Origin: a virus
Lineage: Duplodnaviria > Caudoviricetes
Virus record (IMG/VR): IMGVR_UViG_3300033566_000030
Span: 1 to 57,218 of that record
Reading direction: 5' to 3' (one strand)
DNA: 57,218 bases
Shown here in pieces: positions 73 to 14,011 of the stretch; positions within the stretch are counted from its first letter, which is position 1, and the number at the start of each line of letters is the position of its first letter. The notes beneath the pieces were generated by a model, which saw only the letters and a list, made by a program, of their open reading frames with translations, was not told the origin of the DNA and did no database searches. The translations under genes and the position numbers were made by a program.

Positions 73-1374
73 TTAAAGTGTTTTATGTCTTAAAAGTTCA
101 TAACGATTGCTCTCAAAGATGCTCTTCAACGGTGTGAAAATATCTATCACATCCAAATCATGGATCTTTGTGAAGATAGTATTTATGATACCAGCATTGT
201 ATCCATAATAGTGGATAACATTGGCTAAGCCAGCAAAGTAATCTGTTGAGTTGGTAACATGAGAACTTACGTTCCATACTACAACTACACCAGACCATCC
301 GAACCACTGCAGCATTTCATGTTGAAATTGTGCCATAGATTCTGTCGCTGTACGACCGTTGTTTAGATCACCATCACTTACTACAAGGAATACCGGGTAA
401 GCTTGGATAGCTTCTCTGCGTAACTGACGATCTACATCATCAGTAGCAGCATCCATCCATTTCTTGAATGCTCTTGATACAGTGTTGAAGTGTGTTCCTT
501 CATTCATTGCACGAACAATCATACTTACCGTATTAAGGTTTGTAAGGAAATCAGCTTCTCTGTTAATGATCTGATTAATCACCTTACTACTTCCTTTCAT
601 GAAACGATTTGGACGATCAACACCTACACTACGATCAGTATAGAAGTCAGATTCGCTACCAAAGGTTACCAAGAAGTTATCGATCTCGTCAGATGGATTC
701 TTCAACATAGTCAGAGTTGTTACCAACTGAGCCATCTTGATAGGTAATCCACCACTGTTACTCATCATTGAAGATGATCTATCAGCGATAACAAGTACCG
801 GTACTTCGAATTTCACCTTATCAAGGATTGATTGTGCATTAGTGTTAAACTCATCCACTGTCGTCTTTCCTCCGGTTAGCTTGCCAAATAGGGTAAAGAG
901 ATCCTCTGCTCCAGTGTTAACCTTTGCTTCCTTCTTCACTTTTATAAGCTTCTCTTTCGTTTCTTCAGAAGTATCTCCCTGGCGAACTTTCTCTTCAAGA
1001 ACACGTTGTTCTGATTGAGCGTCAACCTTGAATTTCTCCCAGTTCAAGAACCATGTACCCATGTTACCCCACTTAGCTTTCGCTTTGTCAGTTCCATCAA
1101 GCAGTCGTCTTCTTACACGATAGCGTGCTCCAGAAGGCAAAGTGTTTAACCACAATGCAAACTGTGTTTCATCGAACTCCTTGATCTTTCCAGAAGAGAA
1201 CAATACTGACTCAAGTTCACCATTGTATTCTTGCTTCCAATCTTTCAAGCCGATAAACTGCAGGTTATGTTTGCAAATACGAACTTCCCAGTTCTTTTTT
1301 TTCACTACAGATTTCTTCTTCCTGAGAATAGTAGATCGTAGTTTAGCGTAGTGTTTGTTAATAACGTTTTTCAT
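73..1374 (-). CDS. vWA-domain protein, TROVE/Ro60-like or DUF2828-like; N-terminus possibly short
   Basis: 433 aa ORF. MIDAS motif VLVIADRSSSM, plus GTHF and VVSDGD downstream; helical N-terminal half. Confidence 0.6.
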   Translation of the reverse strand: MKNVINKHYAKLRSTILRKKKSVVKKKNWEVRICKHNLQFIGLKDWKQEYNGELESVLFSSGKIKEFDETQFALWLNTLPSGARYRVRRRLLDGTDKAKAKWGNMGTWFLNWEKFKVDAQSEQRVLEEKVRQGDTSEETKEKLIKVKKEAKVNTGAEDLFTLFGKLTGGKTTVDEFNTNAQSILDKVKFEVPVLVIADRSSSMMSNSGGLPIKMAQLVTTLTMLKNPSDEIDNFLVTFGSESDFYTDRSVGVDRPNRFMKGSSKVINQIINREADFLTNLNTVSMIVRAMNEGTHFNTVSRAFKKWMDAATDDVDRQLRREAIQAYPVFLVVSDGDLNNGRTATESMAQFQHEMLQWFGWSGVVVVWNVSSHVTNSTDYFAGLANVIHYYGYNAGIINTIFTKIHDLDVIDIFTPLKSIFESNRYELLRHKTL

Positions 1375-7169: not shown

Positions 7170-7400
7170 ATGAAAACAAAAACACAGTTCAGAAAATGGT
7201 TCGATCTAATGTGGGGAAACCATTACATCCAGGTATTCATTTTGGACCTATTGTTTATGGGACTAATTACTTATCAGCTAGATGAGTTTGAAGAACCTTG
7301 GACTATTGCGGTAGCTTACGGTATTCCCGGATTAGCTTGCCTAGTAATAATCTACAAGGGCTTTTATAAGTTCTGGCAAGACATGAAGGATAAGTTATGA
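7170..7400 (+). CDS. Small membrane protein
   Basis: 76 aa, two hydrophobic segments. Confidence 0.7.
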   Translation: MKTKTQFRKWFDLMWGNHYIQVFILDLLFMGLITYQLDEFEEPWTIAVAYGIPGLACLVIIYKGFYKFWQDMKDKL

Positions 7401-7816
7401 TAGTAGCGCTTATATTATGGATCCTTGCCGCAATGTGCAATGCCATAATGGATACTCTGGTACATCACTTTGATACAAGTATCTTCAAAAATAAGGACCG
7501 TATGTTCTGGGATCCGGCGATAAGTTGGCGGAATAAATATGTGGATCGCGATAGTACAAAGAGTATCCGAAAACTTTGGATCTTTGATTACCCTGTAGCT
7601 TTTACAGATGCTTGGCATTTCTTTAAGAGTCTGATGATTGTATGTTGTTGCGTGACAATATTATCTCTGCACTAGTCAGCTGTTAAAAATCCTTACCTTT
7701 TAACTACGCAAATAGGTTGCGTAAAGGTAACAATAGGGCTTTTTATATTATTCGGCATTCTATGGAATACTGTATTCTCTGTATGTTATAACAGGATCTT
7801 TAGAAAAAAGAAATAA
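7397..7816 (+). CDS. Membrane protein with an in-frame TAG at 7673-7675
   Basis: The frame stays open for 46 more codons (SAVKNPYLL...IGLFILFGILWNTVFSVCYNRIFRKKK*), adding a TM helix and basic tail. Confidence 0.55.
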
Positions 7817-7818
7817 TA

Positions 7819-7850
7819 TTTGCACAGTTCAAAAACTCTTATTACATTTG
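7819..7850 (+). promoter_or_regulatory. Bacteroidota housekeeping-type promoter for tRNA array 1
   Basis: TTTG (7819-7822), 20 nt, TACATTTG (7843-7850); ATG follows 4 nt later. Confidence 0.8.
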
Positions 7851-7854
7851 TCCT

Positions 7855-7926
7855 ATGAAAATGCTATTACTCTTTAGTTATTGCTTGTGGTCGTCGAAAG
7901 ATGGCTCAGGGAAGACTATTGAATAA
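7855..7926 (+). CDS. Attenuator leader peptide 1 (MKMLLLFSYCLWSSKDGSGKTIE)
   Basis: 23 codons; codons 4-14 are only L/F/S/Y/C/W; contains CTCAGGGA complementary to the terminator 5' arm. Confidence 0.8.
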   Translation: MKMLLLFSYCLWSSKDGSGKTIE

Positions 7927-7960
7927 TGTTTTGTTACGCAACAGAAAACATTTGAACAAG

Positions 7961-7993
7961 AATCCCTGAGTACGCCAACTCAGGGATTTTTTT
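7961..7993 (+). terminator. Attenuator terminator ahead of tRNA array 1
   Basis: AATCCCTGAGT-ACGCCA-ACTCAGGGATT with a 7-T run, ending 4 nt before tRNA-Phe. Confidence 0.85.
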
Positions 7994-7997
7994 ATTT

Positions 7998-8069
7998 GGG
8001 ACTATAGCTCAGCAGGTAGAGCACGGGATTGAAGATCCCGCCGCACTGGTTCGATTCCGGTTAGTCTCA
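7998..8069 (+). tRNA. tRNA-Phe(GAA)
   Basis: Cloverleaf; CGGGA-TTGAAGA-TCCCG. Confidence 0.92.
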
Positions 8070-8075
8070 CAGAAT

Positions 8076-8160
8076 GGGAGTACTGCTAAGAAGGTGGATT
8101 AGCACTGGTCTGTAACACCAGTACAAGGAAACACAAATGGTTCGAATCCATTTACTCTCA
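8076..8160 (+). tRNA. tRNA-Tyr(GTA)
   Basis: CTGGT-CTGTAAC-ACCAG; long variable region. Confidence 0.88.
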
Positions 8161-8165
8161 CATAA

Positions 8166-8247
8166 GGAAGATAGCGTGCGATGGTGCACATCCGGTCTTG
8201 AACACCGGCGCGGTCCTATGGACAGGGTTCGACTCCTATATCTTCCG
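8166..8247 (+). tRNA. tRNA-Ser(TGA)
   Basis: CCGGT-CTTGAAC-ACCGG; variable arm; G73. Confidence 0.88.
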
Positions 8248-8258
8248 CAAAATTAAAT

Positions 8259-8330
8259 ACGAGTATGGTGCAGTGGCTAGCACAGCAGTCTCCAAAACTG
8301 TTGACGGAAGTTCGAATCTTTCTACTCGTG
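8259..8330 (+). tRNA. tRNA-Trp(CCA)
   Basis: GCAGT-CTCCAAA-ACTGT. Confidence 0.92.
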
Positions 8331-8335
8331 CAAAT

Positions 8336-8407
8336 GGAACTATGGATGAGTGGTTTAGTCCCCGGTCTGCAAAACTGGTTACGTTTGTTCGAATCAAACT
8401 AGTTCCT
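8336..8407 (+). tRNA. tRNA-Cys(GCA)
   Basis: CCGGT-CTGCAAA-ACTGG; U73. Confidence 0.92.
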
Positions 8408-8411
8408 CTAT

Positions 8412-8495
8412 AGAAGATAAACCTACTCGGGTAGGAGCAGCCTGCTAAGCTGTCTGGTCGCTATTGTGACTGTGGATCAGGGCCACTATCTTCTG
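8412..8495 (+). tRNA. tRNA-Ser(GCT), atypical T-loop
   Basis: GCAGC-CTGCTAA-GCTGT; variable arm; T-loop reads ATCAGGG. Confidence 0.75.
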
Positions 8496-8500
8496 CAAAT

Positions 8501-8574
8501 ACCTGTGTGGGCAAACGGCAAAGTCGCTTGACTTAGGATCAAGAGTTTTGAGGGTTCGACTCCCTCCATGGGTA
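8501..8574 (+). tRNA. tRNA-Leu(TAG), short variable loop
   Basis: CTTGA-CTTAGGA-TCAAG. Confidence 0.88.
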
Positions 8575-8654
8575 CAATAAAATGTTTAAACTATTTTGGT
8601 TTAAACTTCTGTTCTTTGAAATATTCTGATATCTTTGTGGTTCAATAAACCAAC

Positions 8655-9168
8655 ATGATAATAGATCCAAATTTTCAGACTCCGTTACCGGTAGTTGACC
8701 ACATGATCAGTATGATTCCAATAGGTGCAAAAACTGTACTAGAACCTTCTCCCGGATTAGGAAATATTGTCTCCAGACTTGGAGATTATGAAGTAACTGC
8801 TGCAGATGATTTTCTTTCTCCTGGATAGGAGTAAGCGCTATGATGCTGTTGTTATGAATCCACCATTCTCGGATAAGAGTGGGTTCATGGATAATGCGCC
8901 GGCTGAACTTAAGGAGAACAAGGGAATGCGTCTGGGTTATTACTTTTTACTGGAGTGCATGAAGATGAGTGATAATGTGATTGCCCTCATGCCATGGTTT
9001 ACATTAACAGATAGTGATCGTAGACTGCAGGCTTTAGAAGCTTATGGTATCAAATCTGTTACTTCTTTACCACGTAAGACCTTTGAATATGCACGCATTC
9101 AAACATGCATCATTCACTTACAAAAGGGTTACAAAGGTATCAGTATGTTTGACGTATTCAAATACTAA
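8655..9168 (+). pseudogene. N6-adenine DNA methyltransferase split by a +1 frameshift near 8810
   Basis: Frame from ATG 8655 has motif I (VLEPSPGLG); the 8806 frame has motif IV (VMNPPF); removing one T from 8810-8813 joins them. Confidence 0.8.
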
Positions 9169-9172
9169 CTTA

Positions 9173-9233
9173 TCTGTCCGAAGGTTATGAGGATGCCTCC
9201 TCCTGTAGGTTCATAAAGTAGACAGAAACAGGA
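9173..9233 (+). ncRNA. Small structured RNA with a potential pseudoknot
   Basis: Nested stems TCTGTC/GACAGA and TTATGA/TCATAA; loop TCCTGT complementary to 3' ACAGGA. Confidence 0.35.
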
Positions 9234-9236
9234 AAT

Positions 9237-9315
9237 GCTCCAGTGGCGTAACGGTAGCCGCGCAGGACTTAAAATCCTGTCTTAATTGGTGCGGGTTCAA
9301 GTCCCGCCTGGAGTA
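9237..9315 (+). tRNA. tRNA-Leu(TAA)
   Basis: CAGGA-CTTAAAA-TCCTG. Confidence 0.9.
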
Positions 9316-9346
9316 CTACTTTCAAGATTTTTTTGTATATTAGAAG

Positions 9347-9562
9347 ATGGGAGATTTTCTAAAATGGTTTTTTACTACACACATGCATCCTACGAGGATC
9401 ATAGTATGGAGAGAACTTTTCATGAATCTCATTACACTGATATTCGTTGTAACCTATGCCTATCTTGAGATTCGAGGTGCTGATGCAGCTACGATTACTA
9501 ATCTAAGAATGATCTTACTCTTCGTTCTTGGGTATTATTTCAACAGAAACTCGAAGCACTAA
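9347..9562 (+). CDS. Small two-TM membrane protein
   Basis: 71 aa; TATATTAG element at 9336-9343; ends VLGYYF. Confidence 0.65.
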   Translation: MGDFLKWFFTTHMHPTRIIVWRELFMNLITLIFVVTYAYLEIRGADAATITNLRMILLFVLGYYFNRNSKH

Positions 9563-9614
9563 GAAAAATATTTGGCTGATTTTCACAAAGTTATACTAAC
9601 ATACAAAAGATTTT

Positions 9615-9645
9615 TTTGGTAGCTCAAAAACTTACAGTACATTTG
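9615..9645 (+). promoter_or_regulatory. Bacteroidota housekeeping-type promoter for tRNA array 2
   Basis: TTTG (9615-9618), 19 nt, TACATTTG (9638-9645); ATG follows 5 nt later. Confidence 0.8.
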
Positions 9646-9650
9646 CCACG

Positions 9651-9761
9651 ATGAAACAAGTACAACATATAGCAAATCAAGTGGCGAAAGCCATGATTAC
9701 GCGCAGAGACGGGGTTGAACCGTTATGCCCGGAGGCTTTATATGCAGTATTTGAATTATAA
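9651..9761 (+). CDS. Attenuator leader peptide 2 (MKQVQHIANQVAKAMITRRDGVEPLCPEALYAVFEL)
   Basis: 36 codons; the first 24 contain all 14 amino acids of array 2 and none of L/F/S/Y/C/W; CGGAGGCTTT is complementary to the terminator 5' arm. Confidence 0.8.
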   Translation: MKQVQHIANQVAKAMITRRDGVEPLCPEALYAVFEL

Positions 9762-9789
9762 CACGAAAGTCATAACTCAAAATATAGCG

Positions 9790-9823
9790 AAAAGCCTCTG
9801 ATAATCTCAGGGGCTTTTTTTTT
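9790..9823 (+). terminator. Attenuator terminator ahead of tRNA array 2
   Basis: AAAAGCCTCTGA-TAATC-TCAGGGGCTTTT with a 9-T run. Confidence 0.85.
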
Positions 9824-9837
9824 GTTCTTTAAAATAA

Positions 9838-9910
9838 CGAGATATGGCGAAGTCGGTATCGCGCCTGGTTTGGGACCAGGAGAACGTAGGTTCGAACCCT
9901 GCTATCTCGA
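9838..9910 (+). tRNA. tRNA-Pro(TGG)
   Basis: CCTGG-TTTGGGA-CCAGG. Confidence 0.92.
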
Positions 9911-9935
9911 CATTAATAAATCGTTCTTTAATAAT

Positions 9936-10010
9936 GGGCTGTTGGCGGAGATAGGCGAGCGCACTTCCTTTGCAAGGAAGAACACAGGGGTTCAAGTCCC
10001 TTACGGTCCA
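9936..10010 (+). tRNA. tRNA-Ala(TGC)
   Basis: CTTCC-TTTGCAA-GGAAG; G3-U70 pair present. Confidence 0.9.
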
Positions 10011-10108
10011 CATGTAAAAAAAATTCTCTCTGGGTGACCTGGCACATACCAAGCCTTAAGCGCCGAACCTGGGACCGGAATGCAGTAGCACATAGGAGAG
10101 ACACATTA

Positions 10109-10148
10109 GCAGGAATAGCTCATTCGGTAGAGCGTCAGCCTTCCAAGC
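10109..10148 (+). pseudogene. 5' fragment of tRNA-Gly(TCC), truncated just after the anticodon loop
   Basis: GCAGGAA-TA-GCTC..GAGC-G-TCAGC-CTTCCAA-GC, then unrelated sequence. Confidence 0.8.
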
Positions 10149-10192
10149 AAAAATAAGTTTGGAAGGACAAAAAATAGATGTATCTTTGTTGT

Positions 10193-10612
10193 ATGAATAA
10201 GATATGTTGTACGTGTAAAGAAAATCTTCCTGCTGATAAGTTCAGCATTAGGAAGGATAGAAAAAAACCTTATTTACAGAGCTCTTGTAAAGAGTGTCAT
10301 AGTAAATATAGAAAAGAGCATTATGAAAACAATAGGGTAAAATACATTAAGAAAGCCAGTGTAAATAGACGTTCTTTGAGAGATTGGCTTACTGAGTACA
10401 AAAAAGGATTGTCTTGTGAACAATGTTCTGAAGATAGATTTTGGGTTTTAGAATTTCATCATACAGATCCTTCAAAAAAGGAAGGAGAGATTTCTTTTCT
10501 TGCCAAAAAAGGTAACAAAAAGAAAATCGAAGAAGAGATTAAAAAATGCATAGTTCTATGTGCGAATTGTCATAGAGATTTGCACTATAAACAAAAAGCA
10601 GGAAACGCATAA
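10193..10612 (+). CDS. HNH endonuclease with N-terminal Zn-finger
   Basis: CxxC motifs, LEFHH, LCANCH; promoter TTTG 10158 / TATCTTTG 10181-10188 favours ATG 10193. Confidence 0.85.
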   Translation: MNKICCTCKENLPADKFSIRKDRKKPYLQSSCKECHSKYRKEHYENNRVKYIKKASVNRRSLRDWLTEYKKGLSCEQCSEDRFWVLEFHHTDPSKKEGEISFLAKKGNKKKIEEEIKKCIVLCANCHRDLHYKQKAGNA

Positions 10613-10674
10613 CAGGTGGTGCACCAGACTTCCAATCTGGACTAGAGCGAGTTCGAGCCTCGCTTCCTGCTCCA
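10598..10674 (+). tRNA. tRNA-Gly(TCC), overlapping the HNH stop codon
   Basis: GCAGGAA/TTCCTGC-T-CCA; CCAGA-CTTCCAA-TCTGG. Confidence 0.88.
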
Positions 10675-10846
10675 AACGGTAGACCTCCGCGAAAGGTACG
10701 CCGGGAAAAATATGAAGATCTCAAGGTCTGGATGATAGAAAATCTGGATTGAATGAAGAAGGGTTAAAGGCCCTGACCCTACACTATCGAGGGTTATGTT
10801 TGCAAAAGCTTCGTTGTCTTGAAGTAGTATTTTTCCAAAGCAATTT

Positions 10847-10921
10847 AGCTTGTCGGTCCAGTCTGGAGTGGACGCCGCACTGTCACTGCGGAGATCAGGG
10901 GTTCAAATCCCCTACGAGCTG
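10847..10921 (+). tRNA. tRNA-Asp(GTC)
   Basis: CCGCA-CTGTCAC-TGCGG. Confidence 0.92.
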
Positions 10922-10924
10922 CAA

Positions 10925-10999
10925 GAGGAATGGATATAGGTTCGAATCCTATTGCATCAGCGAAAGCCGATGTATCGTTTAACGGTAAGACAGTTCCTT
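10925..10999 (+). ncRNA. Circularly permuted tRNA mimic (YrlA/Y-RNA-like topology)
   Basis: Order: stem GAGGAAT, T-arm ATAGG-TTCGAAT-CCTAT, acceptor stem closed by GC-GAAA-GC, D-arm GTTT-AACGGTA-AGAC, then GTTCCTT. Confidence 0.75.
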
Positions 11000-11006
11000 A
11001 TTTTAT

Positions 11007-11078
11007 TACTCCTTAGCTCAGCGGTAGAGCAGTGCCCTGTTAAGGCAAAGGTCGTAGGTTCAATCCCTCCAGGAGTAG
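11007..11078 (+). tRNA. tRNA-Asn(GTT)
   Basis: TGCC-CTGTTAA-GGCA. Confidence 0.88.
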
Positions 11079-11087
11079 CAGAAATAT

Positions 11088-11159
11088 TCACACGTAGCTC
11101 AACGGTGGAGCACCACACTGATAATGTGGCGGATGTCGGTTCGAATCCAGCCGTGTGAA
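11088..11159 (+). tRNA. tRNA-Ile(GAT)
   Basis: CCACA-CTGATAA-TGTGG. Confidence 0.9.
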
Positions 11160-11165
11160 CATAAT

Positions 11166-11240
11166 ACCAGAATAGCTCAGTTGGTTCAGAGCAGATCCCT
11201 TACAAGGATAAGGTCGGGAGTTCGAATCTCTCTTTTGGTA
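11166..11240 (+). tRNA. tRNA-Val(TAC)
   Basis: ATCC-CTTACAA-GGAT. Confidence 0.9.
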
Positions 11241-11325
11241 CATAAACGATGATAATTTAAACTTGTAATGTTTACACTAAAGAGATACAAAGCAATAAAG
11301 GTTAGGATAAGATCCTAATCACTAT

Positions 11326-11396
11326 TCCTTTGTAGCTCAATGGTAGAGCTTGCGGCTTTTAACCGTAAGATCCAAGTTCGATTCTTGGCAGGGGAA
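11326..11396 (+). tRNA. tRNA-Lys(TTT)
   Basis: TGCGG-CTTTTAA-CCGTA. Confidence 0.92.
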
Positions 11397-11410
11397 CTTT
11401 AAAAAGATTT

Positions 11411-11484
11411 CTCTCCGTAGCTTAATTGGATGAAGCAGCTGCCTTCTAAGCAGCAGATTACAAGTTCGAGTCTTGTCGGAGAGA
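11411..11484 (+). tRNA. tRNA-Arg(TCT)
   Basis: GCTGC-CTTCTAA-GCAGC. Confidence 0.92.
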
Positions 11485-11487
11485 CAA

Positions 11488-11559
11488 GCGCCCTTAGCTC
11501 AAAGGCGGAGCAGGACACTCATAATGTCAAGGGTGCAGGTTCGATTCCGGCAGGGCGCA
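11488..11559 (+). tRNA. tRNA(CAT), probably Ile2 (lysidine type)
   Basis: GACA-CTCATAA-TGTC; acceptor GCGCCCT with C4-G69 and C5-G68 as in Ile2 tRNAs. Confidence 0.8.
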
Positions 11560-11571
11560 CAAGAAATATAA

Positions 11572-11645
11572 TGCGGGGTAGAGGAGCGGCCGTCCTCGTG
11601 AGACTCATAACCTCAACATCGCTGGTTCGAATCCAGCTCCCGCAA
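11572..11645 (+). tRNA. tRNA-Met(CAT)
   Basis: TGCGGGG acceptor resembles initiator tRNAs, but the anticodon stem lacks three consecutive G-C pairs. Confidence 0.85.
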
Positions 11646-11715
11646 CAAAAGGATTAATGAGTGCCTGATAAAAAGCAGAGAATATAATACCAGGTTCTCT
11701 GCGGTCCTTTTAAAT

Positions 11716-11787
11716 GTTCCTGTCTTCTAATGGTTAGGATAGAGCCCTTTCACGGCACTGATACGAGTTCGATCCTCGTCGGGAATA
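11716..11787 (+). tRNA. tRNA-Glu(TTC)
   Basis: GCC-CTTTCAC-GGC. Confidence 0.88.
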
Positions 11788-11792
11788 CATAA

Positions 11793-11865
11793 GCCGAAAT
11801 AGCTCAACGGTAGAGCTCCTGTTTTGTAAACAGGAGGTTTGTAGGTTCGAATCCTATTTTCGGCT
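11793..11865 (+). tRNA. tRNA-Thr(TGT)
   Basis: CCTGT-TTTGTAA-ACAGG. Confidence 0.92.
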
Positions 11866-11880
11866 CTTTTAATAAGATGT

Positions 11881-11955
11881 GGGGTCTTTAGTTTAAGGGT
11901 AGAACACTGGCTTGTGATGCCGGATATCTGAGTTCGAGTCTCAGTTGGCCTCCCA
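11881..11955 (+). tRNA. tRNA-His(GTG)
   Basis: CTGGC-TTGTGAT-GCCGG; G-1/C73 and encoded CCA; weak acceptor stem. Confidence 0.82.
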
Positions 11956-11965
11956 TCTTATAAAT

Positions 11966-12037
11966 AGTTTCCTCGTCCAACGGATAGGACATTAGACTAC
12001 GGATCTAAAAATAAGCGTTCGAGTCGCTTGGAGACTA
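11966..12037 (+). tRNA. tRNA-Arg(ACG)
   Basis: TTAGA-CTACGGA-TCTAA. Confidence 0.9.
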
Positions 12038-12042
12038 CTTAT

Positions 12043-12113
12043 TAGCCTATAGTTTAATGGCAGAACGGTTGGTTTTGATCCAACAAATCGTGGTTCGAGT
12101 CCGCGTCGGCTAA
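12043..12113 (+). tRNA. tRNA-Gln(TTG)
   Basis: GTTGG-TTTTGAT-CCAAC. Confidence 0.9.
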
Positions 12114-12178
12114 CTTTCTCTCCTCAATGTTTGGTTCTTTCGCATCTTTTGTTTATATTAGTATAAACAGACTACTTC

Positions 12179-14011
12179 ATGGATTCAATAAACTTTACAG
12201 CATGGGTAGCACAACAAAGAATCTTACAAGCTTCTGATATTGTTGCTGCAGATGACCTGTTAATCATAGGTAAAAAAATAAGTAAAAATCGTAGTGGAAG
12301 AGGTTATGAAGAGTTCGTTATAAGTGTAGCGGATTTTTTCTCTTCAGTTGGAAACGGATATACTTTTGTACAAGATGAAGGTATAACTCTTCCACAAAGA
12401 ACAACAATGAATTTTGTTGGTACTGGAGTAACTACTTCTGATATTGGAGGTAAAACGACAATTACTATCGCAGCTGGTGGTCATGCTATAGAAGATGAAG
12501 GTGTTGCTTTAATCAGCCGTCCTATCATGAATTTCGTGGGTGCTGGTGTTGCTGTTACTGATACCGGTGGTAAAACTTTGGTAACTATAGCAGGAGCTCA
12601 TATCATAGAAGATGAAGGGGTTCCTTTAGGAACACAAAGAACTTCTTTGAACTTTACCGGTAATATGGTTTCTGTATTCGATAATGCGGGTAAGACGGAG
12701 GTTAATATTAATCTTTCTATCATGAGAAAGGTTATTTATGTTGATGGTATTAATGGTAACAATGCTTTAGCAGCTGCTAATCTATACGATCAAAAATACG
12801 CGTTTCTTACTTATAACGCAGCTCATGCTGCAGCTGCACAAAACGATACCATTATTCTTTTACCCGGATCTGCTTATACTTGGAACGGTGGTCAGATATT
12901 CAGAAACGGTGGAGCCATTGAAATCATGAAAGGTGCGACTCTTACTTGGATATGGACTCCTGGTGCAATTACTGGAAATACAGGAGACTCTTTCACTATT
13001 TATGGTGAAGGTACTTTTAGTATGAACAATACCATTGATGCTACAGATCCAGCAGGTAATAAAACTTTCAACATCTTTGTTGATACATTCAATATTACTG
13101 CAGGTAATGGTATTTGTTTCGCTCGTGGTTTCATGAAGTTCAACATCGATGTTAATGTTTGTAACTTTAATACGGTTAGTGCTGCAGGTTTCTTTACAGC
13201 AGAAGCGCCAATCTTGAAATTCAAGTGTAATAAAGCAAACTGGGATACTCCATCATTCCCAGGATTTGTATTTAGTGCTCTTTCTGCATCAACAGATGAA
13301 TCTACTTTTGATATCGAAGTGATGAATATCACACGCGGTGGTTTATTCCAGGTACAACTTGGAACAAGTCAAAATTACAAGATTCGTGTAAAAGGTAAGA
13401 TCAACAGTACTTCAAGTGCACCGGCAGCTGTTGGTGTAATTACAACATCTCAATCACCTGCAGGAACCATAAACTCAGAAGCTGATATCGAATGTACAGG
13501 AAGTTCTTTCCCTTATTACATTACAGGTGGTAGTCGTGTGAGTATCCAAGGAACTGTAAAAAGCAATCCTCCTGCTCAGAACCAATCAGCAATCTTAGTA
13601 GATAATGCTTCTGCTGAGGTAATCGTCCGAAATGCAAACGTATTTGGGAACAGACTTGCTGGTGGAGCTATTTGGGCTGTAAGAGGCCTTGTAATGATTG
13701 AAGAATCAACGGTTACGAACGAGGCTTCTGTATCAGGTACAAGTTATGCAGTACAAGTTGGTCCAAATGGAATCAGTTCAGCAGGTTTAATAAAAACTCT
13801 TCTGAAAAGCGTAGTTCTTTTATCAGATCCTGTAACAGGAAATGCTGGAACAGCTCCTACAATATATGTGGATCAGCCTTCCGGAAATCAAGTGATTCAA
13901 TATTTAGGAACAGTTACAGCAAACGGTATAGAATCGGCTAACGTTACAGAAGAATTAGGATTCTACACTTTCTGGCAAGGTGTGACTGTATCAAGAATAC
14001 CGAAAGTATAA
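12179..14011 (+). CDS. Tail fibre / receptor-binding protein
   Basis: Three tandem ~39-aa repeats (IEDEGV..R..MNFVG.GV...D.GGKT..TI), then IYVDG and a beta-helix-like region. Confidence 0.65.
   Translation: MDSINFTAWVAQQRILQASDIVAADDLLIIGKKISKNRSGRGYEEFVISVADFFSSVGNGYTFVQDEGITLPQRTTMNFVGTGVTTSDIGGKTTITIAAGGHAIEDEGVALISRPIMNFVGAGVAVTDTGGKTLVTIAGAHIIEDEGVPLGTQRTSLNFTGNMVSVFDNAGKTEVNINLSIMRKVIYVDGINGNNALAAANLYDQKYAFLTYNAAHAAAAQNDTIILLPGSAYTWNGGQIFRNGGAIEIMKGATLTWIWTPGAITGNTGDSFTIYGEGTFSMNNTIDATDPAGNKTFNIFVDTFNITAGNGICFARGFMKFNIDVNVCNFNTVSAAGFFTAEAPILKFKCNKANWDTPSFPGFVFSALSASTDESTFDIEVMNITRGGLFQVQLGTSQNYKIRVKGKINSTSSAPAAVGVITTSQSPAGTINSEADIECTGSSFPYYITGGSRVSIQGTVKSNPPAQNQSAILVDNASAEVIVRNANVFGNRLAGGAIWAVRGLVMIEESTVTNEASVSGTSYAVQVGPNGISSAGLIKTLLKSVVLLSDPVTGNAGTAPTIYVDQPSGNQVIQYLGTVTANGIESANVTEELGFYTFWQGVTVSRIPKV

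What the first reader, a model, noticed from the sequence alone, without database searches (positions are those of the whole stretch)
7819..12113. Paired leader-peptide attenuators that cover all 20 amino acids and gate the matching tRNA arrays
Seen: two units with the same layout: host-type promoter, near-leaderless short ORF, antiterminator strand inside the ORF, intrinsic terminator, tRNA array. Leader 1 sensor codons encode only L,F,S,Y,C,W, and array 1 has tRNAs only for those six. The first 24 codons of leader 2 contain exactly the other 14 amino acids, and array 2 has tRNAs for exactly those. Each of the 24 tRNAs has a codon it can read in its own leader. In both units the antiterminator strand starts 10-11 nt after the start of the last sensor codon. 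Known: trp/his-type attenuation couples ribosome stalling to antitermination, and host anticodon nucleases (e.g. PrrC, PARIS AriB) deplete tRNAs that phage tRNAs can replace. Inference: a tRNA-pool surveillance circuit. Loss of any tRNA stalls the ribosome, frees the antiterminator and induces the array holding the replacement. I know of no described attenuator that uses one-of-each codons to control tRNA genes.
Basis: partly seen in the sequence, partly recalled or inferred. Interest (0 to 1): 0.97.

Follow-up and report, generated by a model that had tools for sequence, protein, structure and literature searches.

The report
Codon-matched leader attenuators gating phage tRNAs
Two short leader reading frames in this phage each spell out the codons read by the tRNA genes behind them and sit in a classic stall-sensing terminator switch, and the same design recurs in several unrelated phages of flavobacteria, so it looks like a previously undescribed way for phages to make tRNAs on demand.

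Summary
Both units have a Bacteroidota-type promoter whose -7 box ends 4-5 nt before an ATG, a short ORF, an antiterminator strand inside the ORF, a strong intrinsic terminator and a tRNA array. Leader 1 has the run LLLFSYCLWSS and array 1 holds only Phe, Tyr, Ser, Trp, Cys and Leu tRNAs. The first 24 codons of leader 2 hold exactly the other 14 amino acids, and so does array 2. In the six-frame translation of the whole window, leader 2 is the only run with all 14. I found the same design in cultured Cellulophaga phages phi4:1/phi17:2, phi10:1 and phi38:1, in Tenacibaculum phage Gundel_1, and in one more IMG/VR contig. That makes 12 units, whose uninterrupted runs cover 77 of 81 array amino acids. 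Shuffles almost never reach the observed match. Arg codon families follow the isoacceptor present in each array. crAss001 and four phages of other phyla lack the design. Best reading: ribosome-mediated attenuators that put each tRNA array under codon-specific feedback. No RNA or bench data exist, and my literature searches found no prior description. It is a new variant of leader-peptide attenuation and of high interest.

The parts
7819..7850 (+). Promoter of unit 1. -33 TTTG at 7819-7822, shared motif TCAAAAACT-N5-TACATTTG at 7829-7850, -7 box TACATTTG at 7843-7850, ending 4 nt before the ATG.
   Evidence: The sigma-A -7 box TAnnTTTG lies at -12 to -5 in Flavobacterium psychrophilum (PMC9723704, passages read). 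The A of the ATG at 7855 is therefore the predicted +1, making the mRNA leaderless.
7855..7926 (+). Leader ORF 1, 23 codons, MKMLLLFSYCLWSSKDGSGKTIE.
7864..7896 (+). Sensor run of unit 1, codons 4-14: CTA TTA CTC TTT AGT TAT TGC TTG TGG TCG TCG (L, F, S, Y, C, W only). Positions 7875-7895 also pair with region 2 (the 1:2 hairpin).
   Evidence: Shuffles reached the run in 0 of 5000.
7904..7912 (+). Region 2, the antiterminator strand GCUCAGGGA inside the ORF. It pairs with 7963-7971 of the terminator's 5' arm.
   Evidence: Duplex -16.3 to -17.0 kcal/mol. It forms in the minimum-free-energy fold of the nascent transcript. A shuffled ORF reaches this energy in 2 of 500.
7925..7953 (+). Spacer hairpin between the stop codon and the terminator. 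Role unknown; possibly a pause element.
7958..7997 (+). Intrinsic terminator of unit 1 (14-bp stem, T tract), 6 nt before tRNA-Phe.
7998..8575 (+). Array 1, main part: Phe-GAA, Tyr-GTA, Ser-TGA (8166-8248), Trp-CCA, Cys-GCA, Ser-GCT (8412-8496), Leu-TAG.
9237..9316 (+). tRNA-Leu-TAA, the last member of array 1. It is separated from the rest by the methyltransferase ORFs at 8655-9168, which one relative lacks.
   Evidence: Joint 8578->9168 in run X3.
9615..9645 (+). Promoter of unit 2. -33 TTTG at 9615-9618, shared motif at 9624-9645, -7 box TACATTTG at 9638-9645, ending 5 nt before the ATG.
9651..9761 (+). Leader ORF 2, 36 codons. Codons 1-24 (9651-9722) hold exactly M, K, Q, V, H, I, A, N, T, R, D, G, E, P. 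Both Arg families (CGC, AGA) and both ATT and ATA are present.
   Evidence: Shuffles reached the run in 1 of 5000.
9730..9739 (+). Region 2 of unit 2, CGGAGGCUUU. It pairs with 9792-9801 of the terminator's 5' arm.
   Evidence: Duplex -16.5 to -17.3 kcal/mol. A shuffled ORF reaches this energy in 1 of 500.
9789..9828 (+). Intrinsic terminator of unit 2 (13-bp stem, T tract).
   Evidence: 49 of 54 nt are shared with the terminator of a different unit in IMG/VR contig L103.
9838..12114 (+). Array 2: Pro, Ala, [5' half of a Gly tRNA plus an HNH gene], Gly, Asp, Asn, Ile, Val, Lys, Arg-TCT, CAT, CAT, Glu, Thr, His, Arg-ACG, Gln.

Best explanation
Each unit is a ribosome-mediated (leader-peptide) transcription attenuator that controls a phage tRNA array.

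Proposed sequence of events:
1. Host RNA polymerase starts at a Bacteroidota sigma-A promoter, at or 1 nt before the AUG, so a ribosome loads as soon as the 5' end emerges.
2. The leader carries at least one codon for every tRNA of the array behind it. These codons sit upstream of an RNA segment (region 2) that can pair with the 5' arm of the terminator.
3. If any of these codons is decoded slowly because its charged tRNA is scarce, the ribosome stalls upstream of region 2. Region 2 then pairs with the terminator's 5' arm, the terminator cannot form, and the whole array is transcribed.
4. If all codons are decoded quickly, the ribosome runs over region 2, the terminator forms, and transcription stops before the tRNAs.

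Because the array's own products read the leader's codons, the circuit is a codon-specific negative feedback that works as an OR gate over 4-14 amino acids.

Shown from sequence: the promoter, ORF, hairpin and terminator anatomy; the codon/array matching; and its recurrence in other phages.
Inferred: translation of the leaders, termination and readthrough, and the physiological trigger.
For: In the window:
- Anatomy.
- Folding z-scores are -5.35 and -3.65.
- In the nascent transcript the antiterminator is the minimum-free-energy fold. It persists with a ribosome masked at any sensor codon and is lost with the ribosome at the stop.
- Six-frame uniqueness of the two runs; shuffles reach them in 0 of 5000 and 1 of 5000.

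In other phages, the same design appears in phi4:1/phi17:2 (3 units), phi10:1 (1), phi38:1 (3), Gundel_1 (2) and IMG/VR contig L103 (1):
- Runs cover 77 of 81 array amino acids.
- Shuffles reaching the observed run, out of 5000: 0, 1, 0, 0, 2, 0, 9, 0, 0, 0, 58, and 0 for L103.
- A rule-based scan, with no hand-picking of ORFs, recovers 9 of 9 units in the window, phi4:1, phi10:1 and phi38:1 at 9 or fewer of 1000 shuffles.
- Within every phage the leader matches its own array best.
- Arg codons are CGT/CGA before arrays with Arg-ACG, AGA before arrays with Arg-TCT, and both in window unit 2.
- L103 has neither a Phe codon nor a Phe tRNA.
- Residue order is scrambled between analogous leaders (LLLFSYCLWSS, YSYSCFSSWF, WSYSCFSYSF, NSSYSYSSNW), so composition is conserved, not the peptide.
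- Region 2's first paired base lies +10 or +11 nt from the last run codon in 7 of 12 units.
- A shuffled ORF reaches the antiterminator's energy in 13 or fewer of 500 trials for 9 of 11 units.

Relative L092:
- It keeps 180 of 184 leader positions, while flanking genes are 69-77% identical and the Tyr and Ser tRNAs about 62%.

Host context, from passages read in two papers:
- The -7 box lies at -12 to -5, and leader-peptide attenuation is suspected for amino-acid operons in a flavobacterium (PMC9723704).
- phi38:1 has no RNA polymerase of its own (PMC5335546).
Against: - There is no direct evidence of transcription start, termination, readthrough or leader translation.
- With the full transcript, the terminator is always the minimum-free-energy fold, so the switch has to be kinetic.
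- In unit 2 a ribosome parked at the stop codon (9759) would not cover region 2 (9730-9739). Termination under fast translation therefore depends on timing.
- Each tRNA is often represented by a single codon, which may be a weak sensor.
- Several leaders contain codons that the array cannot read:
  - K and M at codons 2-3 of unit 1.
  - T, M, N, Y, Q, L, H or I in other phages' leaders.
  - AGT in phi10:1, which has no Ser-GCT tRNA.
  - A Cys codon in L103, which has no Cys tRNA.
- phi4:1 unit B has no ATG, and its antiterminator is no better than shuffles (243 of 500).
- The own leader is rank 1 for only 6 of 11 terminator arms.
- Region 2 spacing is +4, +6 or -1 in three units.
- In relative L092 the leader is unchanged, but the visible array is Phe, Tyr, Ser, Trp and then the methyltransferase gene. 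Cys, Ser-GCT and Leu-TAG are not seen before the contig ends.
- L103 would need a leaderless GTG start.
- Two of the 24 window tRNAs pass only a relaxed ARAGORN threshold.
- Some array members in other phages (Ala-like, Cys-like, Tyr-like) were read by eye from folds.
- Amino-acid starvation would also trigger the switch, and extra tRNA would not help in that case.
Confidence: 0.8

Rival explanations
1. The attenuator works as described, but its main purpose is counter-defence. It would detect cleavage or depletion of host tRNAs by anticodon nucleases or by phage-induced host shut-off, and would switch on the array that holds the replacement.
For: The OR-gate layout, with one or a few codons per tRNA, suits sudden loss of a single tRNA species better than graded amino-acid limitation.
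Against: Nothing in the window or in the other phages links the units to a defence system. The same layout equally serves plain supply-and-demand feedback or adaptation to codon usage.
Confidence: 0.3
2. The attenuator measures overall translation speed or ribosome availability (generic coupling of RNA polymerase and ribosome), not individual tRNAs. The array would then be a read-out of global translational capacity.
For: Any slow-down of the lead ribosome upstream of region 2 would give readthrough. Leaders tolerate some codons the array cannot read.
Against: A generic timer would not need codon sets that follow array content, down to Arg isoacceptor families and the absence of Phe in L103. 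It would also not need the amino acids to be partitioned between two or three leaders in one phage.
Confidence: 0.1
3. The short ORFs encode functional small peptides (for example hydrophobic or aromatic ones), and the terminators simply end their small transcripts. The tRNAs would be transcribed from elsewhere.
For: Some of these ORFs are annotated as hypothetical proteins in GenBank records (phi4:1 gp075; phi38:1 gp066 and gp070).
Against: Residue order is not conserved, while composition follows the neighbouring tRNA set. The second leader of the window has the complementary composition. The antiterminator strand sits inside the ORF at a fixed distance from the run. No other promoter-like site precedes the arrays.
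Confidence: 0.03
4. Coincidence. T-rich or A-rich intergenic DNA happens to translate into these runs next to tRNA arrays.
For: Array 1 amino acids are mostly those with TNN codons, so T-rich DNA favours them. Two other runs with all six amino acids exist elsewhere in the window.
Against: Dinucleotide-preserving shuffles of the same DNA reach the runs in 0-9 of 5000 for 10 of 11 units and 58 of 5000 for the eleventh, and in 0 of 5000 for L103. The design recurs in six phage lineages. It is absent from 5 control phages.
Confidence: 0.01

Closest known systems
Classical leader-peptide attenuators of amino-acid biosynthesis operons (trpL, hisL, pheL, thrL, leuL, ilvL of enterobacteria). Recalled from established knowledge; reviews were seen only in search listings.
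   Same: A promoter, a short ORF with regulatory codons, mutually exclusive antiterminator and terminator hairpins, an intrinsic terminator before the regulated genes, and stalling at the regulatory codons giving readthrough.
   Different: Those control enzymes and use tandem repeats of codons for one to three amino acids. Here the regulated genes are the tRNAs themselves. The leader carries about one codon per tRNA for 4-14 amino acids. Two or three leaders split the amino acids between them: all 20 in the window, 19 as tallied for phi4:1 and phi38:1. The mRNA is predicted to be leaderless, and the system is phage-borne.
Rfam Phe_leader (RF01859) and Thr_leader (RF00506).
   Same: Weak matches over the terminator part of unit 2 (9732-9823 and 9747-9823).
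   Different: Scores are 28.3 and 21.8 bits against a gathering score of 55, so the units are not members. Unit 1 has no match.
T-box riboswitches, which sense tRNA directly and control aminoacyl-tRNA synthetase and amino-acid genes. Recalled.
   Same: They couple the state of a specific tRNA to termination or antitermination upstream of translation-related genes.
   Different: T-boxes bind uncharged tRNA by RNA-RNA contacts without translation, sense one tRNA each, and are not known to control tRNA genes. No T-box match appeared in the Rfam scan.
Attenuator of the phenylalanyl-tRNA synthetase operon (pheM leader before pheST). Recalled, not looked up.
   Same: A leader-peptide attenuator that controls a component of the decoding machinery in response to the supply of the cognate charged tRNA.
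   Different: It regulates a synthetase, with one amino acid, in a bacterial chromosome.
Phage tRNA arrays without such leaders, for example Bacteroides phage crAss001 (24 tRNAs in the fetched locus).
   Same: Large tRNA clusters upstream of the structural genes, and an HNH gene next to tRNA-Gly.
   Different: There are no terminator-like sites before its tRNAs and no matched leader ORFs.

Membership tests
Ribosome-mediated (leader-peptide) transcription attenuator | A promoter directly upstream of a short ORF. | tested here: met
   Bacteroidota -33/-7 consensus, with the -7 box ending 4-5 nt before the ATG in both units. Box geometry is from PMC9723704 passages. This is a consensus match only; no transcription start was mapped.
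Ribosome-mediated (leader-peptide) transcription attenuator | A short ORF whose codons relate to the function of the regulated genes. | tested here: met
   Runs cover 6 of 6 and 14 of 14 array amino acids. All 24 tRNAs have a readable codon. Shuffles reach the runs in 0 of 5000 and 1 of 5000.
Ribosome-mediated (leader-peptide) transcription attenuator | An intrinsic terminator between the leader ORF and the regulated genes. | tested here: met
   7958-7991 and 9789-9819, stems of 14 and 13 bp with T tracts, 6 and 18 nt before the first tRNA.
Ribosome-mediated (leader-peptide) transcription attenuator | An antiterminator mutually exclusive with the terminator, placed so that a ribosome stalled at the regulatory codons leaves it free and a ribosome further on masks it. 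| tested here: met
   Region 2 duplexes are about -16 to -17 kcal/mol. They are the minimum-free-energy fold of the nascent transcript and are lost when the ribosome is placed at the stop. The first paired base is at +10 in both units. This is computed, not measured.
Ribosome-mediated (leader-peptide) transcription attenuator | Readthrough depends on leader translation and on the supply of charged tRNA. | not testable with these tools
   No RNA run holds the stretch. This needs reporter, Term-seq or Ribo-seq work.
Rfam leader families (Phe_leader, Thr_leader and others) | A score at or above the family's gathering threshold. | tested here: not met
   Best scores are 28.3 and 21.8 bits against 55.
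T-box riboswitch | A match to the T-box covariance model (specifier loop, T-box sequence). | tested here: not met
   No T-box match at E <= 1 in 7400-12400.

The most novel reading that the evidence does not exclude
Phages of Bacteroidota carry a previously unrecognised class of 'pan-codon' leader attenuators. The genetic code is split into two or three codon sets, roughly by first codon letter. Each set is spelled once in a leaderless mini-ORF, and each ORF gates the tRNA array that decodes that set. The phage would thus monitor decoding capacity codon by codon and make exactly the tRNAs that are running short, whether the cause is codon-usage mismatch, host shut-off or anticodon-nuclease defence. 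The promoter-leader-terminator cassettes appear to be exchanged as modules between unrelated phages. The same logic might also operate on tRNA operons of the bacterial hosts, which I could not examine.
Probability: 0.6. Interest if true: 0.95.

Novelty: new variant of a known kind. Interest (0 to 1): 0.9.

Why it matters
- To my knowledge, and within the literature searches that ran, tRNA genes have not been reported to be controlled by leader-peptide attenuation. A leader that carries one codon for each of up to 14 amino acids has not been reported either.
- If the switch works as read, it explains how phages regulate the tRNA arrays they carry. It also gives a direct handle on the long-standing question of what those tRNAs are for, because the phage's own sensor names the codons it cares about.
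- The system sits in culturable phage-host pairs (Cellulophaga and Tenacibaculum phages), so it can be tested now.
- It corrects annotation: several 'hypothetical proteins' in GenBank phage records are leaders or tRNAs.
- It offers a compact natural multi-input sensor of tRNA availability for synthetic biology.

Tried and rejected
Searches for relatives of the window phage:
- IMG/VR scans with the flanking proteins gave one non-syntenic hit without tRNAs (L003), nothing, or only domain-level hits.
- TerL gave 5 loci. Three contigs at 67% identity are too short to reach the tRNA region. G001 (52% identity) has only Met and Trp tRNAs at the syntenic place and no leader.
- Exact patterns from leader 1 and from tRNA-Phe found nothing in IMG/VR.
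- The shared promoter-plus-ATGAAA pattern found two unrelated contigs where it precedes an ordinary gene. That promoter form is therefore generic.
- Genome-contig scans with the unit 1 terminator and with a tRNA-Pro pattern found nothing. I therefore obtained neither host candidates nor host tRNA operons.
- tblastn of leader 2 against GenBank phages gave only chance hits (E >= 4).

Other checks that led nowhere:
- blastn of the first CAT tRNA against E. coli genomes gave no match. Whether it is Met or Ile2 stays open.
- No RNA holder was listed among sequencing runs, so expression could not be examined. The laid runs were contigs only, and 214 differences were not shown there.
- crAss001, Sphingomonas phage PAU, Mycobacterium phage Myrna, Klebsiella phage Metamorpho and Vibrio phage phi-Grn1 showed no matched leaders.
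- In the rule-based scan the two Gundel_1 arrays merged, because an HNH gene separates the second terminator from its tRNAs. The result was 57 of 1000, so that phage was analysed by hand.
- The first version of the scan crashed and split arrays at weak hairpins. I rewrote it.

Ideas considered and rejected:
- That the terminators belong to upstream genes. A promoter lies in between.
- That the peptides are functional. Residue order is not conserved.
- Chance. See the shuffle controls.

Later some searches ran.
- Supplementary files of papers were not consulted. The supplements of PMC9723704 (lists of 5' regulatory regions) and PMC5335546 (RNA-seq tables) may bear on expression of such leaders.

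Full report
**What the window is.** The window is an IMG/VR viral contig of 57,218 bases, estimated about 48% complete. Its large terminase, portal and major head proteins match crAss-like PHROG families. The terminase is only about 23-24% identical to those of crAss-like and Flavobacterium phages in GenBank. The tRNA region lies 11-15 kb upstream of the terminase gene on the same strand.

**Check of the observation.** The two ORFs exist as described:
- 7855-7926: MKMLLLFSYCLWSSKDGSGKTIE.
- 9651-9761: MKQVQHIANQVAKAMITRRDGVEPLCPEALYAVFEL.

ARAGORN at default settings finds 22 tRNAs. Rfam supports only the first of these two, weakly. Both fold as class II cloverleaves with G73, and the second has an odd T loop.

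- Array 1 = Phe, Tyr, Ser, Trp, Cys, Ser, Leu-TAG and, after two methyltransferase ORFs, Leu-TAA.
- Array 2 = 16 tRNAs for the other 14 amino acids.

The terminators at 7958-7991 and 9789-9819 are the two strongest of 11 terminator-like sites in the region (3.3 expected from shuffles). Both leaders are preceded by TTTG-N-TCAAAAACT-N5-TACATTTG. This 22-nt motif occurs only at these two places in the window. The -7 box ends 4 nt (unit 1) or 5 nt (unit 2) before the ATG. In Flavobacterium psychrophilum the sigma-A box TAnnTTTG occupies -12 to -5, and only 5.5% of mRNAs are leaderless (PMC9723704, passages read). The geometry therefore predicts a leaderless or 1-nt-leader mRNA.

**Is it more than chance?** The six-frame translation of the whole window holds about 114,000 residues.
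- It contains a single run with all 14 'non-LFSYCW' amino acids and none of the six. That run is leader 2.
- It contains three runs made only of the six that hold all six. Leader 1 is the longest of them.
- Dinucleotide-preserving shuffles of the leader DNA reach the observed runs in 0 of 5000 and 1 of 5000.
- At codon level all 8 and all 16 tRNAs have a readable codon in their own leader.
- The split families are each represented: CTA/CTC and TTA/TTG; AGT and TCG; CGC and AGA; ATT and ATA.

**RNA anatomy.** Both leaders fold better than shuffles (z = -5.35 and -3.65).

Unit 1:
- The sensor codons 7875-7895 pair with 7900-7918 (hairpin 1:2).
- Region 2 (7904-7912, GCUCAGGGA) is complementary to the terminator's 5' arm.

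Unit 2:
- Region 2 is 9730-9739 (CGGAGGCUUU).

In the nascent transcript, before the 3' arm exists, the 2:3 antiterminator is the minimum-free-energy fold. It survives masking of a ribosome at any sensor codon and disappears when the ribosome is placed at the stop codon. With the complete transcript the terminator always wins, as expected for a kinetic switch. The first paired base of region 2 lies +10 nt from the start of the last sensor codon in both units. This explains why the matching runs end exactly there. The later codons of leader 2 (L, C, Y, F among them) lie where a stalled ribosome would mask region 2.

**Close relatives of the window phage.**
- Contigs of three studies cover parts of the stretch. 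All are DNA or of unknown kind. No RNA holder was listed.
- A JGI metagenome contig (L092) is a syntenic relative. Flanking genes are 69-77% identical at DNA level.
- In L092 similarity starts exactly at the -33 box. The promoter-leader-terminator block has 180 of 184 identical positions and tRNA-Phe 70 of 73, whereas the next tRNAs (Tyr, Ser) are about 62% identical.
- Codon 17, just before region 2, is the variable spot: GGC here, GAC in L092, AGC in runs X1 and X2.
- This near-identity gives no covariation. It shows either strong constraint or recent exchange of the cassette.
- Against strict matching: the L092 array visible before the contig ends is Phe, Tyr, Ser, Trp and then the methyltransferase gene. 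Cys, Ser-GCT and Leu-TAG are not seen.
- In run X1 the similarity breaks inside leader 2, after 9694. I could not see what follows.

**Generalisation.** I looked at GenBank phages whose tRNAs resembled those of the window and found the same design in every flavobacterial phage lineage I fetched.

| Phage (locus; calls) | Leader peptide | tRNAs behind it | Remarks |
|---|---|---|---|
| phi4:1, and identically phi17:2 (L094, L095; 50, 51, 53, 58, 62) | MKIQRLHLQELEQPIISGGTGV | Pro, Glu, Gln, His, Leu, Leu, Arg-ACG | |
| phi4:1 / phi17:2 | ..VQLTKTGITVIDKTKGARAYLGDTVIG | Ala, Lys, Ile, Gly, Met, Asp, Thr, Val, Arg-TCT, Met | No ATG start |
| phi4:1 / phi17:2 | MKTNYCTYNNSNWSFSYDTG.. | Tyr, Ser, Ser, Asn, Trp, Phe and a Cys-like tRNA | |
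| phi10:1 (L096) | MLKKWSYSCFSYSFKNGEVIL | Tyr, Trp, Phe, Ser, Cys | |
| phi38:1 (L097) | three units | the same three sets as phi4:1 | Different sequences from phi4:1 |
| Tenacibaculum phage Gundel_1 (L098) | MKTKLYSYSCFSSWFKNRAG | Tyr-like, Trp, Phe, Ser, Cys-like, Ser | |
| Gundel_1 (L098) | MKTNNLHIQQNNLPVF.. | an HNH gene, then Pro, Gln, Met, Asn, Leu | |
| IMG/VR contig L103 (91-95) | VKRNSSYSYSSNWCK.. | Trp, Asn, Ser, Ser, Tyr | No Phe codon and no Phe tRNA |

The phi10:1, phi38:1 and Gundel_1 rows rest. Some tRNAs there pass only the relaxed ARAGORN threshold or were read by eye from folds (Ala-like, Cys-like, Tyr-like). L103 was found because it shares 49 of 54 nt around the terminator of window unit 2.

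Tallies over the 12 units:
- The uninterrupted runs cover 77 of 81 array amino acids.
- Shuffles reach the observed run in 0-9 of 5000 for 10 of the 11 units, in 58 of 5000 for the eleventh, and in 0 of 5000 for L103.
- A rule-based scan takes any terminator-like site within 130 nt before a tRNA, defines the array as everything up to the next such site, and takes the best run in any frame. It recovers 9 of 9 units of the window, phi4:1, phi10:1 and phi38:1 at 9 or fewer of 1000 shuffles.
- The same scan finds nothing comparable in crAss001, PAU, Myrna, Metamorpho and phi-Grn1.
- Within each phage the own array reads the largest share of the leader's codons.
- Arg codons are CGT/CGA before Arg-ACG arrays and AGA before Arg-TCT arrays.
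- Region 2 is complementary to the unit's own terminator arm. A shuffled ORF reaches the energy in 13 or fewer of 500 trials for 9 of 11 units, and the own leader is rank 1 for 6 of 11 arms.
- The exceptions are phi4:1 B (243 of 500) and phi38:1 B (33 of 500).
- The +10/+11 spacing holds in 7 of 12 units.
- In 7 of 12 units the -7 box, or a one-mismatch variant of it, ends 4 nt before the start codon. In window unit 2 the gap is 5 nt.

**Mechanism.** The most economical reading is classical ribosome-mediated attenuation applied to tRNA genes. Slow decoding of any codon of the set leaves region 2 free, the antiterminator forms and the array is made. Fast decoding lets the terminator form. Because the array's products read the leader, this is negative feedback on codon-specific decoding capacity.

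Scrambled residue order with conserved composition argues against a functional peptide. Matching at the level of isoacceptors argues against a generic translation-speed timer. phi38:1 has no RNA polymerase of its own (PMC5335546, passages read), which fits host-type promoters. Leader-peptide attenuation is suspected for amino-acid operons in a flavobacterium (PMC9723704), so the host machinery is compatible.

The trigger in nature is not addressed by any result here. Candidates are codon-usage mismatch, decay of host tRNAs during infection, and anticodon nucleases.

**Weak points.**
- There are no RNA or bench data.
- The switch must be kinetic.
- In unit 2 a ribosome resting at the stop would not cover region 2.
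- Single codons may be weak sensors.
- Codons the array cannot read occur in several leaders.
- One unit (phi4:1 B) lacks an ATG and a convincing antiterminator.
- L103 needs a leaderless GTG start.
- The L092 array looks shorter than its leader implies.

**Comparison with what is known.** The units work like trp/his-type attenuators and meet all the sequence-level features of that class. They do not belong to any Rfam leader family (best 28.3 bits against 55) or to the T-box family. I found no paper describing leader-peptide control of tRNA genes or a one-of-each-codon leader (searches; listings and abstracts only). The phi38:1 transcriptome paper contains neither 'leader' nor 'terminator'. 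Three searches failed, supplements were closed, and subscription journals are not covered, so prior art cannot be excluded.

**Verdict.** The feature is a new variant of a known mechanism with an unprecedented target and logic, it is present in culturable phage-host systems, and it is worth experimental follow-up.

Noticed in passing
window 10109-10674: The HNH endonuclease gene (ORF 10178-10612) sits between a 5' half of tRNA-Gly-TCC (10109-10148) and a complete tRNA-Gly (10598-10674). Contigs of runs X1 and X2 join 10148 to 10647 with 8 other letters, so relatives have an uninterrupted tRNA-Gly without the HNH gene. The cassette looks like a mobile insertion that brings its own replacement 5' part. 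crAss001 has the same tRNA-Gly / HNH / tRNA-Gly layout (76% identity over 109 nt). Gundel_1 has an HNH gene abutting tRNA-Pro.
   Followed up: partly
window 8655-9168: An N6-adenine-methyltransferase-like gene (NPPF motif) is split into two overlapping frames (8655-8828 and 8806-9168). The relative in run X1 has one base fewer at 8813, the relative in X3 lacks the whole gene (joint 8578->9168), and L092 has it. It is either a frameshifted gene or an assembly error, and it is an insertion inside array 1.
   Followed up: partly
window 10018-10105, 10676-10846, 10922-11006: Structured, non-coding stretches lie between tRNAs of array 2. 10922-11006 has a perfect T-arm-like hairpin but no cloverleaf order. 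In run X1 the stretch 10919-11009 is replaced by 116 other letters. These could be degenerate tRNAs or unknown small RNAs.
   Followed up: no
window 7998-9316 versus 9838-12114; L094, L097: The arrays are sorted roughly by the first codon letter. Array 1 reads TNN codons (plus CTN and AGY). phi4:1 and phi38:1 have a CNN-type set (P, Q, H, L, R-ACG, plus E), a TNN-type set (plus N) and an A/G-type set. From memory, the TNN decoders are the tRNAs that carry i6A-type modification at position 37. Whether that is the reason for the grouping is unknown.
   Followed up: no
L092 around 660-850 (minus strand) versus window 7819-8070: Similarity to the relative starts exactly at the -33 box. It is 180 of 184 over promoter, leader and terminator and 70 of 73 in tRNA-Phe, but about 62% in the next tRNAs and 69-77% in neighbouring genes. 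The cassette behaves as an exchangeable or extremely constrained module.
   Followed up: yes
L103 2264-2316 versus window 9774-9825: An otherwise unrelated IMG/VR contig shares 49 of 54 nt around the unit 2 terminator, but it has a different leader and a different array. Terminator modules seem to move between units.
   Followed up: yes
GenBank records NC_021788 (L094) and NC_021796 (L097): Several annotated 'hypothetical proteins' are probably not proteins. phi4:1 gp075 is leader B called from a TTG inside the promoter. gp076 overlaps a tRNA-Ser-TGA-like gene. phi38:1 gp066 and gp070 are leaders B and A with extended starts.
   Followed up: partly
window 11488-11560 and 11572-11646: There are two tRNAs with anticodon CAT. 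One may be an Ile tRNA read as ATA after lysidine modification, which would fit the ATA codon in leader 2. The second resembles tRNAs annotated as Met in Vibrio phages. A search of E. coli genomes with the first gave no match.
   Followed up: partly
L089 (G001, terminase 52% identical): A more distant relative has only tRNA-Met and tRNA-Trp at the syntenic place upstream of the terminase, with no leader ORF or terminator in front.
   Followed up: yes
L090 4809-4841, L091 4022-4054: The promoter form TCAAAAACT-N5-TACATTTG-N5-ATGAAA also precedes an ordinary gene in two unrelated viral contigs. It is therefore a general strong promoter with a near-leaderless start in such phages.
   Followed up: yes
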